A DNA stretch of 22,878 bases, taken from the IMG/VR virus record IMGVR_UViG_2574180019_000007; one strand, written 5' to 3'. The DNA is from a virus (taxonomy: Duplodnaviria; Heunggongvirae; Uroviricota; Caudoviricetes). Below, piece after piece: positions 10,574 through 21,793 of the stretch. The notes beneath the pieces are model-generated. The model saw nothing but the letters and a program-made list of their open reading frames with translations. It did no database searches and was not told the DNA's origin. The first letter of the stretch is position 1; each line of letters begins with the position of its first letter. The translations under genes and the position numbers were made by a program.

Positions 10574-11176
10574 TCATGGCATGGCCATGAGCATTTTCAC
10601 GTCCGCATCACCGTCTGCTGACGTCTGTGCCACGCCACCCTGTACCGCTGCCGGTGAATGGTTCGCCATGAAATGTTCAAACATGGCGGTTGTGGATGCA
10701 GAGACCGGTTCTGCCTTACCTGATCCCGCAGCCAGCACAGCCCGGGCGCTCTCCACTGTCATTCCCGGGCAGGCAGCCAGCTGTTCAGCCTGCGCCTCAG
10801 CCCCTTTTGCCTCATCCAGTGCCATGATCTGATCACGAAGTGAGGGCCCGGCATTCGCCTGCGGTGAAGCAGCCAGGATCGGGCGGGCTTTTTCCACCGT
10901 CATCTCCGGCATCGCCGCCAGCGTTGCTGCCAGTTGTTCACGACCGTTCGCTTCTTCACACGCCATAATGCGATCGGCTTCACTCTGTGCGGATGCCACC
11001 GGCTGCTGCGGTGCCGCCGCGGCCAGAATCGCCCGGGCCTGTTCAACGCTCATGCCCTGTTGCCCTGCCAGCATCGTGGCAAGCTGTTCACGTCCTTTCG
11101 CTTCCTGGCATGTCAGGATCCCCATCACTCGCTGGTTCTCCTGCACGGCGGCTTCCGTTGCAGTTAATTGCGGCAT
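10574..11176 (-). CDS. Nu3: Scaffolding protein Nu3-like, from an in-frame internal start within C
   Basis: Internal ATG at 11174-11176 (MPQLTATEAAV...) preceded by a strong RBS (AGAGGAGGCACT). Gives a 200-aa product covering the repeat-containing C-terminal part of C, analogous to lambda Nu3, which is the in-frame 3' part of C. Confidence 0.5.
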   Translation of the reverse strand: MPQLTATEAAVQENQRVMGILTCQEAKGREQLATMLAGQQGMSVEQARAILAAAAPQQPVASAQSEADRIMACEEANGREQLAATLAAMPEMTVEKARPILAASPQANAGPSLRDQIMALDEAKGAEAQAEQLAACPGMTVESARAVLAAGSGKAEPVSASTTAMFEHFMANHSPAAVQGGVAQTSADGDADVKMLMAMP

Positions 11177-12079
11177 AGTGCCTCCTCTGACATTACTGTT
11201 CAGCGCCGTGGCCATCACACTGATGGCATCCGACGCATTGATTAATTCATCCGCCAGCCCGGCCTCAATGCCGGACTGACCTTCAAAAACGGCAGCCTCT
11301 GTTCCCGTGACGGCATCAACAGACAGACCGGTATACATCGCCACTTTTTCGGCAAACATCCGGCGCGCCGCATCAATCCGCTGCTGCATGTCCTGGCGAA
11401 CCTCTGCCGGCAACGCTTCAAACTGATTGCCATCCACCTTGTGCGCCCCGGCATAAATCAGCGTGATATCCACACCGGCCTGCGCCAGATGACCGGCATA
11501 GCTGACATGGCTCATCATCACGCCAATGGAGCCGATACGGGATGTCTGGGTAACCAGCCGTCGGGAGCAGGCCGACGCCAGCAGCATGGCTGCAGAACAG
11601 GCCGTGTCATTACACAGTGCCCAGACCGGCTTCTGCTGCCGGAGGCGGTAAATCATGTCAGCGCAGTCAAACGCGCCGGCGGCCTGCCCGCCCGGACTGT
11701 CAATGTCCAGCAGTATGCCCCGCACCTGGCTATCTGCCATTGCCTGCTGAAGACAGGCGACAATGCCGTCATAGCCAGTCATTCCGGAAAATGGCCGCAT
11801 CCCCCCCAGCCGGTGCACCAGCGTGCCGGTCACCGGCAGTACCGCAATACCGTTCACCACCCGGTAAACACGGGCCGGTCGTTTACCTCCGGCCATGTAC
11901 TCGTCCGTTTCAGCCAGCATTCCGGGTGCATCAAGCTGTACCTGCTGTTGTGGTACCGAAAGACTTGCTGCCCCCATCTCGCGCCCGAGCGCGCAAAAGA
12001 AAACCCGCGCATAGGCGGGCTCCAGAAGCAGCGGTTCATTGAATGCTGCGGCAATAATGTGTGAAAGATTACGTCTCAC
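10574..12079 (-). CDS. C: Prohead maturation protease C (S49/ClpP-like peptidase) with C-terminal scaffold repeats
   Basis: 501-aa ORF starting with GTG at 12077-12079 and overlapping the B stop. N-terminal half carries a serine-peptidase S49-like core (GIAVLPVTGTL, ILLDIDSPGG, GSIGVMM). C-terminal third has three tandem repeats of about 38 aa. Confidence 0.85.
   Translation of the reverse strand: MRRNLSHIIAAAFNEPLLLEPAYARVFFCALGREMGAASLSVPQQQVQLDAPGMLAETDEYMAGGKRPARVYRVVNGIAVLPVTGTLVHRLGGMRPFSGMTGYDGIVACLQQAMADSQVRGILLDIDSPGGQAAGAFDCADMIYRLRQQKPVWALCNDTACSAAMLLASACSRRLVTQTSRIGSIGVMMSHVSYAGHLAQAGVDITLIYAGAHKVDGNQFEALPAEVRQDMQQRIDAARRMFAEKVAMYTGLSVDAVTGTEAAVFEGQSGIEAGLADELINASDAISVMATALNSNVRGGTMPQLTATEAAVQENQRVMGILTCQEAKGREQLATMLAGQQGMSVEQARAILAAAAPQQPVASAQSEADRIMACEEANGREQLAATLAAMPEMTVEKARPILAASPQANAGPSLRDQIMALDEAKGAEAQAEQLAACPGMTVESARAVLAAGSGKAEPVSASTTAMFEHFMANHSPAAVQGGVAQTSADGDADVKMLMAMP
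10715..11125. repeat. Three tandem in-frame repeats of about 114 bp in the C/Nu3 scaffold region
   Basis: Protein repeats MGILTCQEAKGREQLATMLAGQQGMSVEQARAILAAA / IMACEEANGREQLAATLAAMPEMTVEKARPILAAS / IMALDEAKGAEAQAEQLAACPGMTVESARAVLAAG. The corresponding DNA segments are visibly similar. Confidence 0.5.
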
Positions 12080-18841: not shown

Positions 18842-19335
18842 TGCTGACCCCACAAACAGATTTCACGCTCAATCTCACGACGAGTCATGAGACCTTTCCA
18901 TTGCTTACCGCCAGCATATGTCCAGCGACGTAGCTGATCACATGCGCCTTTGATATCGCCCTGGTTTATTTTGCGAAGAAGCGTCGATGTTCTGAAATTG
19001 CCAGCACCCACGTTGTAAACGAATGAGTAAAGAGCGCCGCGCATTGTTTCCGGTATATCGACTTTGATGTACGGGTTAATTTGTCTGGCGACCGTGGCAA
19101 GGTCTTTATTCAGGAGGGCTTTGCATTCTGCTTTGGTATACGTTTTACCGAGCATGATGTCTTTTCCTGTATGCCCGTGACATACAGTCCATACACCAAC
19201 AATATCTTTGTATGGTATGTAGCTGACACCTTCCAGACCATCGTTACCACTTGGGCCAGTGATTAACACTGATGCTATAGCAATTGCTCCGCCACCAATA
19301 GCAGCAGCAACGGCTTTTCGTAATGATGGAGGCAT
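18838..19335 (-). CDS. R: SAR endolysin (T4-lysozyme-like, phage 21 R type)
   Basis: 165-aa ORF with a Gly/Ala-rich N-terminal signal-anchor-release segment ([20 protein letters not shown]), then the E-x8-D-x5-T catalytic spacing ([16 protein letters not shown]). Matches my memory of the phage 21 / DLP12 RrrD-type endolysin and is unlike the lambda R transglycosylase. Confidence 0.9.
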
Positions 19336-19550
19336 TATTCACCTCTCGCAGCCTTGCGCTTATCTTCTTTAATCTTGAAATAAAGGTTTGTCAGGTACGT
19401 CAGCAGGCCAAATACCAGGCTACCCAGCACACCTATTGCCGCCCACTGTGAGGGCGTGACTTTATCGAGCAACTGTAAAAACCAGTACCCGGCACTACCT
19501 GCTGAGGTACCATAGGCGACACCCGTTGTTAACTTATCCATGGATTTCAT
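19335..19550 (-). CDS. S: Pinholin S (phage 21 S21 type), dual-start motif
   Basis: 71-aa [74 protein letters not shown] with two transmembrane segments, resembling S21. Two Met codons (M1, M4) separated by a Lys fit the antiholin/holin dual-start arrangement. RBS GAGGTGGGG upstream. Confidence 0.85.
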
Positions 19551-19674
19551 AACCCCACCTCGCAGACAAAGCGGGTGTAAATTAAGGGGATACTACGTAT
19601 CGCAATAAAGGCAGAAACGTAACAGATTCGGAGTCAGTGAATAACTCAGGTATTGGGTTATCAGCTAATATCGA

Positions 19675-19711
19675 GACTCAAAAAATGGAAAAACCCGCTC
19701 GACGGCGGGTT
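19675..19711 (-). terminator. Intrinsic terminator on the minus strand about 140 nt upstream of S, with no minus-strand ORF upstream of it
   Basis: Minus strand reads AAACCCGC-CGTCGA-GCGGGTTT followed by TTCCATTTTTTGAG: an 8-bp GC-rich stem plus U-tract. Not terminator-like on the plus strand. Confidence 0.45.
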
Positions 19712-20138
19712 TAAGCTGTGTGACGAAGTAACCACTCTTAACAGCATAACCAATTTTTTACGTACGTAAACTACTAAATGATATTTGTGAGAATGCCACC
19801 GAGTGTTCAAAACACCACCACAAATGCATAAGAAAACTTCAACAAATAACCAGTTAATAATTTCCGATGTTATTTTTAGTTTGTTTAAATTAAGCTAAAG
19901 AATTATAGAGCACTTATAAATAAGTGCCATTAATATAAATTAGCTAATAGATTTATTTTTGTTCAGACAAGAGCCATGAATAGGATTAGATAGAAAAGGT
20001 TCAGATAAAAATAGAGATCTACTTCACAAATTAAATGAGAAACTAAAACTTACATCTTGAAATAATCACATTGATTAGATGAATATTTATCGCGCAGTGA
20101 CATCATTTTTTAATAAAAGTTCAAAAAAAGGGCGTACA

Positions 20139-21221
20139 ATGAAAAAATTAACAGTGGCAATTTCTGCTGTAGCTGCATCAGTACTGATGGCGATGTCTGC
20201 TCAGGCAGCTGAAATTTATAATAAAGACAGTAACAAGCTGGATCTATACGGGAAAGTTAATGCCAAGCACTACTTCTCCTCTAATGATGCAGATGATGGT
20301 GATACTACTTATGCCCGTCTTGGCTTCAAAGGTGAAACCCAAATCAACGATCAACTGACTGGTTTCGGTCAGTGGGAATATGAATTCAAAGGCAACCGTG
20401 CTGAATCTCAAGGTTCTTCCAAAGACAAAACCCGTCTTGCATTTGCAGGCCTGAAATTTGGTGATTACGGCTCAATCGATTACGGCCGTAACTACGGTGT
20501 AGCATACGACATCGGTGCGTGGACTGACGTTCTGCCAGAATTCGGTGGTGATACCTGGACCCAAACAGATGTGTTCATGACTGGTCGCACTACTGGTGTT
20601 GCAACTTATCGTAACAACGACTTCTTTGGTCTGGTCGATGGCCTGAACTTTGCTGCTCAGTATCAGGGTAAAAATGACCGCACTGACGTAACTGAAGCCA
20701 ATGGTGATGGTTTCGGTTTCTCCACTACTTATGAGTATGAAGGATTCGGCGTGGGTGCAACCTATGCTAAATCAGATCGCACTGACGGTCAGGTCGCCTA
20801 TGGTAAGAGCAAATTCAATGCCTCCGGCAAAAATGCGGAAGTATGGGCTGCAGGCCTGAAATATGATGCGAACAATATCTATCTGGCTACCACATATTCT
20901 GAAACTCAGAATATGACCGTTTTTGGTAATAACCATATTGCAAACAAAGCACAAAACTTTGAAGCAGTAGCACAATATCAGTTTGACTTCGGTCTGCGTC
21001 CATCTGTTGCTTACCTTCAGTCAAAAGGTAAAGACCTTGGTGTTCATGGTGACCGAGACTTAGTCAAGTATGTCGATGTCGGTGCTACTTACTACTTTAA
21101 TAAAAACATGTCCACTTTTGTTGATTACAAAATCAACTTAATTGACGATAGTAAGTTTACCAAAACAGCTGGTATTGATACCGACGACATCGTCGCTGTA
21201 GGTCTGGTTTATCAGTTCTAA
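20139..21221 (+). CDS. nmpC: OmpC-family general porin (NmpC / Lc-like phage-encoded porin)
   Basis: 360-aa product from ATG at 20139 (RBS AAGGG). Signal peptide [23 protein letters not shown], then [17 protein letters not shown]..., classical enterobacterial porin blocks ([81 protein letters not shown]) and C-terminal ...VGLVYQF. Opposite strand to Q and the lysis genes. The gene symbol is by analogy with DLP12. Confidence 0.9.
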
Positions 21222-21230
21222 TCTGACTTA

Positions 21231-21270
21231 CGAAAAAGATATGTTGCGGGAGGCTTTGCCTCCGCAACAT
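21231..21270 (-). terminator. Strong hairpin at the 3' end of the porin gene; U-tract is on the minus-strand side
   Basis: ATGTTGCGGGAGG-CTTTG-CCTCCGCAACAT (12-bp stem with one bulged G). On the minus strand it is followed by ATCTTTTTCG; on the plus strand by ATATAAGTGGAG (no U-tract). Lies about 140-170 nt downstream of the Q stop in the minus direction. Confidence 0.4.
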
Positions 21271-21357
21271 ATAAGTGGAGCCCTCAAGCCACTTCCTTTA
21301 GAAGCACTACCTTGCTTCTTACTATATAAACCTTCTGTTATATATTACCCTTTATTT

Positions 21358-21386
21358 TGGGGGCGTTTCCACGCCCCATTTTTAAT
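21358..21386 (+). terminator. Plus-strand intrinsic terminator about 140 bp downstream of the porin stop
   Basis: GGGGCG (21360-21365), loop TTTCCA, CGCCCC (21372-21377), followed by ATTTTTAAT. On the minus strand the hairpin is followed by CAAAATAAAGGG, so it is oriented for plus-strand termination. Confidence 0.45.
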
Positions 21387-21409
21387 AACTTTTAGTAAAC
21401 AATTGCATA

Positions 21410-21793
21410 TCAATTAGAATTATTAGCAACGATATCCATATCTAACCGGATATCTAATGCCATTAACATCCCTTCAATTATGCCCTCAGCCTTCTGTAAC
21501 CTTTTCCCGATATAACCATCCGAGCAGCAATGCTTACTTGCCAGTGACATGAATGTCATACCACATACATAATAATCTACTAATAAATCGTGTAAATCGC
21601 TGTTGTTCTTTTTCAGACGGGCCATGCACCCGCAAATGATCATCGCGTCATCGTCACAACATTGCGGGCGAGATTTTACTTTTGAAGGAATTAATCCCTT
21701 AAAACCGGCGGCAATGGACGACCAGGTCACATCTTCATGATTATTAGCCGCCCACGCACCCCAACGCTCAAGAACCATCTGAATATCACGCAT
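21410..21793 (-). CDS. Q: Late-gene antiterminator Q (DLP12 QuuD type)
   Basis: 127-aa product from ATG at 21791-21793 (RBS GGAG): [35 protein letters not shown]...[20 protein letters not shown].... Matches my memory of E. coli QuuD. Cys-rich zinc-binding-type motifs. Positioned upstream of the lysis genes. Confidence 0.85.

What the first reader, a model, noticed from the sequence alone, without database searches (positions are those of the whole stretch)
19675..19900. Orphan minus-strand terminator between the porin promoter region and S
A clean intrinsic terminator (8-bp GC stem plus U-tract) is oriented toward S but has no minus-strand ORF upstream of it; the sequence upstream is the AT-rich porin promoter region. 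Either it ends a short non-coding transcript divergent from the porin promoter (the arrangement of micF relative to ompC on the chromosome), or it is the true late leader terminator placed next to S. In both cases it predicts an unannotated small RNA.
Basis: inference. Interest (0 to 1): 0.45.

Follow-up and report, generated by a model that had tools for sequence, protein, structure and literature searches.

The report
Late-operon terminator beside prophage lysis genes
The "orphan" hairpin is the ordinary stop signal that follows a prophage's late-gene promoter and that the phage Q protein overrides to switch on lysis; it only looks orphaned because a porin gene has been inserted between Q and that promoter.

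Summary
The hairpin is real: minus strand 19712-19691, 8 bp (5 G-C, 3 A-U), 6-nt loop, then UUCCAUUUUUU. It is not orphan. A conserved sigma-70 promoter lies directly upstream (-35 TTTACG 19770-19765, -10 TATGCT 19748-19743, start about 19736). Promoter, initially transcribed stretch and hairpin are homologous to the segment annotated as late promoter, Q-utilisation site and terminator next to Q in Shiga-toxin phage VT2-Sakai. The window's Q (21410-21793) is 81% identical to that phage's Q and belongs to the Q21/Q933W family (Pfam PF06530). The same module occurs in prophages of 13 enterobacterial genera. Every locus that retains enough upstream sequence (24 of 27) has a same-strand Q upstream, and most have a hairpin of varying sequence (4 of 8 pairs compensatory, none broken in 14 variants). 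So this is pR'-tR' of the late operon, displaced 1.6 kb from Q by the reverse-oriented porin cassette. The predicted RNA is a leader of about 50 nt, the analogue of lambda 6S RNA and of the 5' end of the StxS precursor. The micF-like reading is not supported. This is a known kind of element, unannotated in this prophage. It has no transcript data here and may leak. Low interest. A side observation: the gap between Q and pR' is a recurrent slot for reverse-oriented cargo, including defence genes.

The parts
19691..19712 (-). Intrinsic terminator hairpin (tR'-type): AAACCCGC-CGTCGA-GCGGGTTT
   Evidence: dG -12.0 kcal/mol, z -2.95. Homologous to the annotated terminator of VT2-Sakai. Conserved as a structure in 14 variants with 4 compensatory pairs and none broken.
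19680..19690 (-). T-tract after the stem (TTCCATTTTTT); expected RNA 3' ends at about 19690-19686
   Evidence: Read directly from the sequence. The release point is inferred, not measured.
19765..19770 (-). -35 hexamer TTTACG of the late promoter pR'
   Evidence: Aligns with the 'putative late promoter' annotated in AP000422.1. Matches the consensus at 4 of 6 positions.
19743..19748 (-). -10 hexamer TATGCT, 16-nt spacer
   Evidence: Across the 29 real module variants listed this hexamer reads TAnnnT (one exception, L023 TATTGC). Positions 1 and 2 are invariant and position 6 nearly so, while the middle positions vary.
19757..19770 (-). Dyad TTTACGT|ACGTAAA overlapping the -35 hexamer; candidate Q-binding element
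   Evidence: The sequence of the dyad changes with the Q subtype whether Q is 20 nt or 2.9 kb away (Mantel r 0.87, 0 of 5000 permutations reach it). Calling it the Q-binding element is inference.
19720..19740 (-). Conserved stretch TAAGAGTGGTTACTTCGTCAC around and after the transcription start (about 19736 +/- 3). TAAGAGT resembles the sigma-dependent pause elements of phage 21 (TAAGCTG) and lambda (AACGAT).
   Evidence: TAAGAGTGGTTAC is invariant in six relatives found by BLAST. It occurs once in the window, with 0 expected by chance. The start is inferred from the dRNA-seq start in Sakai (PMC7547250). The pause element is not pinned down.
19686..19736 (-). Predicted pR' leader RNA, about 47-51 nt
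   Evidence: Inferred from the start and the terminator. It folds into a 5' arm plus the terminator hairpin, dG -13.9 kcal/mol. The phage 21 archetype has a leader of the same size. There are no transcript data for this locus.
19335..19550 (-). Holin S (S21 type), the first late gene downstream; R and Rz follow
   Evidence: Pfam PF04971, E 2e-35. RefSeq annotates essD/rrrD/rzpD.
21410..21793 (-). Antiterminator Q (QuuD), Q21/Q933W family
   Evidence: PF06530, 181 bits. 81% identical to VT2-Sakai Q. Matches Q21 structures 6P18/6JNX at E 4e-8.
19774..21389 (+). Porin cargo cassette inserted between Q and pR': porin gene 20139-21221, its AT-rich promoter region, and its 3' UTR with terminator 21360-21377. 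The limits of the cassette are approximate.
   Evidence: Homology to Q-adjacent relatives stops at residue 120 of Q and resumes at about 19773. Porin_1 PF00267, E 2e-151. The + strand terminator is listed.

Best explanation
The hairpin is the terminator (tR') of the prophage's late operon. It belongs to a compact cassette of the Q21/Q933W kind. A sigma-70 late promoter, pR', starts transcription at about 19736 on the minus strand. Without Q, RNA polymerase stops at the hairpin and U-tract about 47-51 nt later, releasing a short leader RNA and keeping holin, endolysin and spanin genes (S, R, Rz) off. When Q (QuuD, 21410-21793) is made, it binds a site in the promoter and loads onto polymerase paused just after the start. 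Polymerase then reads through the hairpin into S. Shown here: the hairpin, the promoter-like elements, their homology to an annotated pR'/qut/terminator, the Q family, the constant cis-linkage of module and Q, and conservation of the hairpin as a structure. Inferred: the exact start site, the pause element, the Q-binding element, the efficiency of termination, and Q-dependent read-through in this prophage. The cassette looks orphaned because a 1.6-kb porin cassette, transcribed in the opposite direction, lies between Q and pR'.
For: 1) Window 19773-19689 (minus strand) matches at 78-89% the segment of Stx phages that lies at the 3' end of Q. In VT2-Sakai that segment is annotated 'putative late promoter', 'putative Q-utilization' and 'rho-independent terminator'.
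2) The window's Q is 81% identical to VT2-Sakai Q. It is PF06530 and matches the Q21 structures. Yin et al. name PF06530 the Q21/Q933W family.
3) dRNA-seq in Sakai places the pR' start at the position that aligns with window 19736 (PMC7547250).
4) The initially transcribed motif was found in 28 loci of the genome collection, 27 of which share the flanks. They come from 13 enterobacterial genera. The hexamer TAnnnT sits at a fixed distance upstream. Each of the 24 loci that retain enough upstream sequence has a PF06530-type Q on the same strand, 20 nt to 2.9 kb away.
5) A terminator-like hairpin ending at +46 to +63 is found in 24 of the 29 real module variants listed, with at least 7 different stem sequences. 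In 14 variants all 8 pairs are kept, and 4 pairs show compensatory changes. The one chance match, L029, has no hairpin.
6) The dyad at -36..-21 changes with the Q subtype (Mantel r 0.87, 0 of 5000 permutations).
7) The curated phage 21 record puts the -35, Q-binding element, -10, start site, pause element and a terminator ending at +50 in the same order and on the same scale.
8) S starts 140 nt downstream on the same strand, and no other minus-strand terminator lies between.
9) The module is identical in K-12 DLP12. PMC7918800 cites Rueggeberg et al. 2013 for control of the DLP12 lysis operon by the Q-type antiterminator.
Against: There is no transcript evidence for this locus. The supplements held for a K-12 3'-end mapping study contain nothing for essD or nmpC. 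RNAs of about 50 nt are easily lost from such libraries, and the held files may be cut. In Sakai the pR' RNA is reported to run 258 nt to a second terminator, so the homologous first hairpin is at best partly efficient there. The window has no second terminator before S. The stem has only 5 G-C pairs and the U-tract is interrupted. The promoter matches the consensus at only 8 of 12 positions, so the scan did not list it. The sigma-dependent pause element could not be placed with confidence: TAAGAGT lies at -4..+3 relative to the inferred start. The candidate Q-binding element is a dyad, whereas Q21 binds a direct repeat. The correlation between Q subtype and dyad could also arise from shared descent alone.
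Confidence: 0.85

Rival explanations
1. A micF-like regulatory small RNA that belongs to the porin cassette. It would be transcribed divergently from the porin promoter region, for instance from the sigma-70-like site at 19930..19902, end at the hairpin, and control porin mRNAs by base pairing.
For: The layout resembles micF/ompC. A 10-of-12 promoter-like site lies at 19930..19902 on the minus strand. The same cassette already carries one porin-regulating RNA, IpeX.
Against: The hairpin and the 60 nt upstream of it occur in phages with no porin, namely VT2-Sakai, SfII, Stx2a_1447 and many genera. Promoter-like sites are not enriched in this region (7 found against 10.6 expected). The -35 of the 19930 site is not conserved in K-12. 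No MicF match appears at E up to 10. Pairing of the leader's 5' part with the porin start region is no better than chance. The stretch 19779-19938 is the least conserved part of the intergenic region.
Confidence: 0.04
2. A pure insulator. The hairpin would exist to stop stray transcription that leaves the AT-rich cargo region from reaching the toxic lysis genes, and Q would not act on it.
For: Cargo lies directly upstream in most loci. A terminator at this position would block such read-through.
Against: The hairpin is also present where Q is adjacent and there is no cargo (VT2-Sakai, L013, L014, L023, L036). It always sits at +25 to +60 of a conserved promoter, which an insulator has no need for. 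An insulating effect is compatible with the main explanation as a side benefit.
Confidence: 0.06
3. The hairpin terminates poorly and acts mainly as a structural or pause element of a longer leader, so the lysis genes receive a constant low level of transcription from pR'.
For: In Sakai the pR' RNA extends 258 nt past the homologous hairpin. The stem has only 5 G-C pairs and the U-tract is interrupted. The DLP12 lysis operon is reported to be expressed and to have physiological effects in K-12 (PMC7918800).
Against: A hairpin followed by a T-tract is conserved across very different stem sequences, which is the signature of a terminator. Phage 21, the archetype of this Q family, has its mapped terminator at the same distance.
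Confidence: 0.05

Closest known systems
Late-gene regulatory cassette of phage 21 (Q21, pR'21, QBE, SDPE, terminator), as annotated in OL657228.1 and studied structurally by Yin, Kaelber and Ebright (2019)
   Same: The Q protein family is the same (PF06530). The order of elements is the same: -35, Q-binding site in the promoter, -10, start, pause element, terminator. The terminator ends at about +50, giving a leader of about 48 nt. An S21-type pinholin and a SAR endolysin lie downstream.
   Different: No nucleotide homology to the window's module was detected. Q21 binds two 8-bp direct repeats between -27 and -12, whereas the candidate site here is a dyad at -36..-21. In phage 21, Q is adjacent to pR' and tRNA genes follow the terminator. 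Here, 1.6 kb of reverse-oriented cargo separates Q from pR'.
pR' region of Stx phages 933W / VT2-Sakai and its RNA StxS (Sy, Lan and Tree 2020)
   Same: The promoter, initially transcribed region and first hairpin are true sequence homologues (78% identity), and Q is 81% identical. The start site was mapped by dRNA-seq. The promoter is described as constitutively active in lysogens.
   Different: In Stx phages a second terminator 258 nt from the start is taken as tR'. The functional Hfq-binding StxS is the 3' 74 nt of that longer RNA. That part is absent from the window, where the first hairpin is the only terminator before S. In Stx phages pR' overlaps the end of Q.
Lambda pR'-tR' and 6S RNA
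   Same: The logic is the same: a constitutive late promoter, a short terminated RNA in lysogens, and Q-dependent read-through into S, R and Rz. The initially transcribed stretch looks similar (lambda AACGATGGGTTAATTCG, here AAGAGTGGTTACTTCG).
   Different: Lambda uses a different Q family (PF03589) and has a 194-nt leader. No significant homology was found.
micF, divergent from ompC
   Same: A small terminated RNA gene lies divergent from a porin gene.
   Different: There is no sequence or Rfam similarity and no complementarity above chance. The module is not linked to porins in other genomes.
IpeX of DLP12 / PA-2
   Same: It lies in the same prophage cassette and is a known prophage small RNA affecting porins.
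   Different: IpeX is described as part of the porin transcript, which puts it on the + strand downstream of the porin stop, about 1.5 kb away and on the other strand. It is not this feature.

Membership tests
Q21/Q933W-type late-gene antitermination cassette (Q, pR', Q-binding element, pause element, tR', late genes) | A Q protein of Pfam PF06530 encoded upstream on the same strand | tested here: met
   PF06530, 181 bits. 81% identical to VT2-Sakai Q. Matches Q21 PDB entries at E 4e-8. The family is named.
Q21/Q933W-type late-gene antitermination cassette (Q, pR', Q-binding element, pause element, tR', late genes) | A sigma-70 promoter (pR') with a mapped start site | tested here: inconclusive
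   TTTACG-16-TATGCT matches the consensus at only 8 of 12 positions. The -10 pattern TAnnnT holds in the 29 real variants with one exception. The start was mapped only in the Sakai homologue, not in this locus.
Q21/Q933W-type late-gene antitermination cassette (Q, pR', Q-binding element, pause element, tR', late genes) | A Q-binding element within the promoter | tested here: inconclusive
   The dyad at -36..-21 co-varies with the Q subtype. It is not the direct repeat known for Q21, and no binding data exist.
Q21/Q933W-type late-gene antitermination cassette (Q, pR', Q-binding element, pause element, tR', late genes) | A sigma-dependent pause element in the initially transcribed region | tested here: inconclusive
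   TAAGAGT resembles TAAGCTG of phage 21 but lies at -4..+3 relative to the inferred start.
Q21/Q933W-type late-gene antitermination cassette (Q, pR', Q-binding element, pause element, tR', late genes) | An intrinsic terminator shortly after the start and before the late genes | tested here: met
   S begins 140 nt further on.
Q21/Q933W-type late-gene antitermination cassette (Q, pR', Q-binding element, pause element, tR', late genes) | The Q gene lies immediately next to pR' | tested here: not met
   1.6 kb of porin cargo lies between them. The same displacement occurs in 16 of the related loci, so this is a common variant of the layout rather than grounds for exclusion.
Q21/Q933W-type late-gene antitermination cassette (Q, pR', Q-binding element, pause element, tR', late genes) | Q-dependent read-through of the terminator | not testable with these tools
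   Known only second hand for DLP12: PMC7918800 cites Rueggeberg et al. 2013. The primary papers are not held.
StxS small RNA | The 74-nt 3' fragment of the 258-nt pR' transcript, ending at the second terminator | tested here: not met
   Homology to VT2-Sakai ends after the first hairpin. blastn with the 74-nt part finds nothing in the window.
MicF (Rfam RF00033) | A match to the family model, and antisense pairing to a porin mRNA start region | tested here: not met
   No match at the gathering score or at E up to 10. The duplex with the adjacent porin leader is no better than shuffles. ompF itself was not tested.
IsrK (Rfam RF01394; Gifsy-1 RNA from an antitermination-regulated promoter) | A match to the family model | tested here: not met
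   11.8 bits against a gathering score of 50. The alignment rests only on the terminator hairpin.
IpeX | Location within the porin transcript, downstream of the porin stop codon | tested here: not met
   The feature is on the opposite strand, upstream of the porin gene. The position of IpeX is taken from PMC12197685. The primary paper is not held.

The most novel reading that the evidence does not exclude
The leader RNA of about 50 nt made from pR' would be more than a by-product. It would be produced constitutively in every lysogen, and the S-to-porin intergenic region that contains it is present in 2355 of 5426 complete E. coli genomes, K-12 included. It would act in trans as a regulatory small RNA through its 24-nt unpaired 5' arm, as the longer StxS does in Stx phages. 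A leaky hairpin would also set the basal level of lysis-gene expression that has been linked to vesicle and biofilm phenotypes.
Probability: 0.12. Interest if true: 0.5.

Novelty: new member of a known kind. Interest (0 to 1): 0.18.

Why it matters
The result corrects how this very common prophage region should be read. The late promoter and its terminator lie next to S, not next to Q, so late transcription does not have to run antisense through the porin gene. The lysis genes are held off by a single modest hairpin. That gives a concrete, testable account of how DLP12-type lysis cassettes are kept nearly silent in E. coli K-12, CFT073 and Nissle 1917. It also yields exact coordinates for an unannotated RNA of about 50 nt. 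More broadly, it shows that Q of this family routinely acts on a promoter up to 2.9 kb away, with the gap used for reverse-oriented cargo such as porins and defence systems.

Tried and rejected
1) My first recollection was that this is IpeX. That was wrong: IpeX is part of the porin transcript, on the other strand and about 1.5 kb away. The primary paper is not held.
2) My recollection that QuuD is a phage 82-type Q, with a pause at +25, was also wrong. Pfam and the PDB place it in the Q21/Q933W family. No 82-specific inference is used.
3) Rfam gave nothing at the gathering score. The sub-threshold hits (Trp_leader, isrK, RNAI, STnc370, P9) all rest on the generic terminator hairpin.
4) A search for a sigma-E promoter (GGAACTT with up to 2 mismatches, 15-17 nt, TCNRA) across 19500-19960 on the minus strand found nothing. 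The published RpoE control of the DLP12 lysis operon could therefore not be placed.
5) A look for transcript ends in the supplements of a K-12 3'-end mapping paper found no entries for essD, nmpC or the expected coordinates. This is uninformative rather than negative.
6) Exact mapping of the Sakai start coordinate failed, because the held record is version 2 and the paper used version 1. The start is therefore given as +/- 3 nt.
7) The 1986 PA-2 record annotates a CRP site on the stretch AGTGGTTACTTCGTCACACAG. I rejected it as the main function because the stretch is conserved in porin-less phages and lies 400 bp from the porin start.
8) The primary papers of Rueggeberg 2013 and 2015, Toba 2011 and Plunkett 1999 are not held.

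Full report
Context. The window is a lambdoid prophage. Its S-to-porin intergenic region is 100% identical to E. coli CFT073, Nissle 1917 and ATCC 25922. At least 80% of that region is present in 2355 of 5426 complete E. coli genomes, and none of the 30 best-matching records carries an annotation under the match. The genes on the minus strand are Q/quuD (21410-21793), S/essD (19335-19550), R and Rz. A porin gene on the plus strand (20139-21221) lies between Q and S. K-12 DLP12 has the same layout, with IS5 inserted in the porin gene.

The observation. The scan finds a minus-strand terminator-like site at 19712..19691. It reads AAACCCGC-CGTCGA-GCGGGTTT, with 8 pairs (5 G-C) and a 6-nt loop, followed by TTCCATTTTT. 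On its own the hairpin folds at -12.0 kcal/mol, with z -2.95. The + strand copy has no T-tract. No minus-strand ORF ends upstream of the hairpin. A 49-aa TTG ORF runs straight through it. Terminator-like sites as a class are not enriched in this region (10 found against 6.2 +/- 2.7 in shuffles), so the pattern alone proves little. The case rests on comparison with relatives.

What it is homologous to. A blastn search of 19551-19780 against phage records gave 361 hits. In porin-carrying phages (PA-2, 434B, several ECOR phages) the whole stretch matches. In about 290 Stx phages only 19773-19689 matches, and there the match lies at the 3' end of gene Q. The VT2-Sakai record annotates that very segment as 'putative late promoter', 'putative Q-utilization' and 'possible rho-independent terminator'. 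The alignment shows TTTACG-16 nt-TATGCT, then GTTAAGAGTGGTTACTTCGTCACACAGCTT, then the hairpin, against TTTACG-16 nt-TATCAT, GATAAGAGTGGTTACATTGCCACGCAGTC and a hairpin with the same stem and a different loop. The window's Q is 81% identical to VT2-Sakai Q over residues 1-120 of 127. It is Pfam PF06530 and matches the Q21 structures 6P18/6JNX. Yin et al. call PF06530 the Q21/Q933W family. I had first recalled a Q82 relationship, and the tools showed that this was wrong.

Coordinates. The -35 hexamer TTTACG is at 19770-19765 and the -10 hexamer TATGCT at 19748-19743. Sy et al. mapped the Sakai pR' start by dRNA-seq 258 nt upstream of a Term-seq 3' end. In VT2-Sakai that places the start at the A of TAAGAG, 7 nt after the -10, which aligns with window 19736. 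The held Sakai record is a different version from the one used in the paper, so I give the start as +/- 3 nt. Termination in the T-tract would produce an RNA of 47-51 nt, running from 19736 to about 19686. This RNA folds into a short 5' arm plus the terminator hairpin.

Breadth and linkage to Q. Scanning one genome per species for TAAGAGTGGTTACNTNGNCAC returned 28 loci. About 17 exact matches would be expected by chance in a collection of that size. However, 27 of the 28 also share the flanking sequence and are therefore real; L029 is the one match that looks like chance. The real loci come from Escherichia, Shigella, Yersinia, Enterobacter, Trabulsiella, Kosakonia, Ewingella, Tatumella, Rosenbergiella, Atlantibacter, Citrobacter, Serratia and Phytobacter. 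A few are metagenome bins with implausible labels. Upstream of the motif, at a fixed distance, every real locus has TAnnnT. Positions 1 and 2 never vary, position 6 differs in one locus (L023, TATTGC), and the middle positions vary freely, which is how a genuine -10 element behaves. Each of the 24 loci that retain enough upstream sequence has a PF06530-type Q on the same strand. It lies either 20-85 nt away or 0.4-2.9 kb away. Lysis genes often begin 170-215 nt downstream.

The hairpin is conserved as a structure. Of these, 24 have a G+C-rich hairpin followed by a T-tract ending at +46 to +63. The stems differ: AAACCCGC/GCGGGTTT, CCTCGC/GCGGGG, CCTCG/CGAGG, CCCTGCC/GGCGGGG, GCCTCA/TGAGG, GGCCTCG/CGGGGCT and CCCTGTC/GACGGGG. 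RNAalifold on 14 distinct variants predicts 8 pairs, 4 of them with compensatory double changes, and none is broken in any sequence. The chance locus L029 has no hairpin. Within E. coli the module (19778-19659) is the best conserved part of the intergenic region, with 117 of 120 columns identical in three sequences. The adjacent stretch 19938-19779 has 129 of 160.

A candidate Q-binding element. A short dyad overlaps the -35 hexamer at -36..-21. It reads TTTACGT|ACGTAAA here, TTTACGA|TCGTAAA in VT2-Sakai and GCGTACGC in the SfII type. Other variants are TGCGG-T-CCGCA, TCGG-C-CCGA, TGTAAT|TACA and ATTCGT-T-ACGAAT. Clustering the Q proteins at 65% identity reproduces exactly these dyad types, whether Q is adjacent or kilobases away (Mantel r 0.87, 0 of 5000 permutations reach it). 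The initially transcribed stretch is the same across all Q clusters. This fits a specificity element read by Q, but shared descent could also produce the correlation. Q21 itself binds a direct repeat, so the assignment is inference.

The archetype. The curated phage 21 record lists, in order, -35, QBE, -10, start site, SDPE (TAAGCTG at +2..+8) and a terminator spanning +3..+50. Its leader folds into one hairpin followed by U7, giving an RNA of about 48 nt. The window's cassette has the same order and scale but no detectable nucleotide homology to phage 21. TAAGAGT in the window resembles the SDPE of phage 21, and AAGAGTGGTTACTTCG resembles lambda's AACGATGGGTTAATTCG. However, TAAGAGT lies at -4..+3 of the inferred start, so I leave the pause element unassigned.

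Mechanism. Following the established model for this family, polymerase starting at pR' pauses near the promoter and, without Q, terminates at the hairpin. Q bound at its site loads onto the paused complex and forms a nozzle on the RNA exit channel that prevents the terminator hairpin from forming. Transcription then continues into S, R and Rz. For the identical DLP12 sequence, PMC7918800 cites Rueggeberg et al. 2013 for control of the lysis operon by the Q-type antiterminator. I could not read the primary papers.

Cautions. No transcript data exist for this locus. In Sakai the pR' RNA is reported to be 258 nt long and to end at a second terminator. The first hairpin, the homologue of this one, must therefore let some polymerase through there. 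The window has no second terminator before S. The stem is modest and the U-tract is interrupted. A leaky tR' is therefore a real possibility, and it would fit the reported basal activity of the DLP12 lysis operon.

The micF-like reading. The module occurs without any porin in VT2-Sakai, SfII, Stx2a_1447 and most genera. Rfam shows no MicF match even at E up to 10. The leader's 24-nt arm pairs with the porin start region no better than shuffles do (243 of 500). The separate promoter-like site at 19930..19902 lies in a region where such sites are fewer than expected (7 against 10.6), and its -35 differs in K-12. The functional 74-nt part of StxS is absent from the window.

Why it looked orphaned. 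Homology to Q-adjacent relatives ends at residue 120 of Q and resumes at about 19773. The intervening 1.6 kb is therefore an inserted cassette: the porin with its own promoter region and its own terminator at 21360-21377. No second copy of the module lies next to Q.

Verdict. The feature is an unannotated instance of a well-known kind of element, so its interest is low.

Noticed in passing
window 19774-21389; loci L005, L008, L010, L011, L012, L015, L018, L020, L024, L026, L032-L035: The gap between Q and its late promoter is a recurrent cargo slot. In 14 of 15 gaps examined (0.4-2.9 kb) the long ORFs run opposite to Q and the late operon. PADLOC hits among them include PD-Lambda-5 A+B (L020, E 1e-164 and 7e-125), PDC-S20 (L024, 5e-147), an NsnB/AriA/OLD-like ATPase (L018, 2e-48), PDC-M53A (SfII, 2e-32) and PDC-S33 (L011). 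The porin occupies the same slot here. I could not establish whether this slot has been described before.
   Followed up: partly
window 19757-19770 (-) and the equivalent positions in L005-L036: The dyad overlapping the -35 of the late promoter changes in step with the Q subtype, while the transcribed stretch stays constant (Mantel r 0.87). This suggests the Q-binding site of Q933W-type proteins is a dyad, unlike the direct repeat bound by Q21.
   Followed up: partly
window 21222-21385 (+): The 3' UTR of the porin gene, with its terminator at 21360-21377 (GGGGCGTTTCCACGCCCC then ATTTTT), is where the known small RNA IpeX should lie, according to the description in PMC12197685. It is not annotated in the CFT073 record.
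   Followed up: no
window 19716-19736 (-); L003 1730-1750: The 1986 PA-2 record annotates a CRP-binding site (TGGTT-N6-TCACA) exactly on the conserved initially transcribed stretch of the late promoter. A second annotated CRP site corresponds to about 20011-20031, near the porin promoter.
   Followed up: no
window 19909-19926: A perfect palindrome, GCACTTAT-tt-ATAAGTGC, lies in the AT-rich region upstream of the porin gene and overlaps the promoter-like site at 19930..19902. One arm differs in K-12.
   Followed up: no
L006 1564-1586 and 1767-1795 (VT2-Sakai): Stx phages carry two terminators after pR'. Sy et al. treat only the second (258 nt from the start) as tR' and do not discuss the first, which is the one conserved across 13 genera. 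How much terminates at the first hairpin in Stx phages appears to be an open question.
   Followed up: partly
window 11995-12019 (-): A near-copy of the Stx-type hairpin, GCCCGCCTATGCGCGGGTTTTCTTTT, lies inside a 501-aa minus-strand ORF (10574-12079), just after the start of that ORF. It may be a chance match or an internal attenuator.
   Followed up: no
window 19551-19600 (-): The stem CACCCGC...GCGAGGTGGGG overlaps the ribosome-binding site and dual start of S. The 434B record annotates two start codons for this type of holin. K-12 lacks 17 nt just upstream of it.
   Followed up: no
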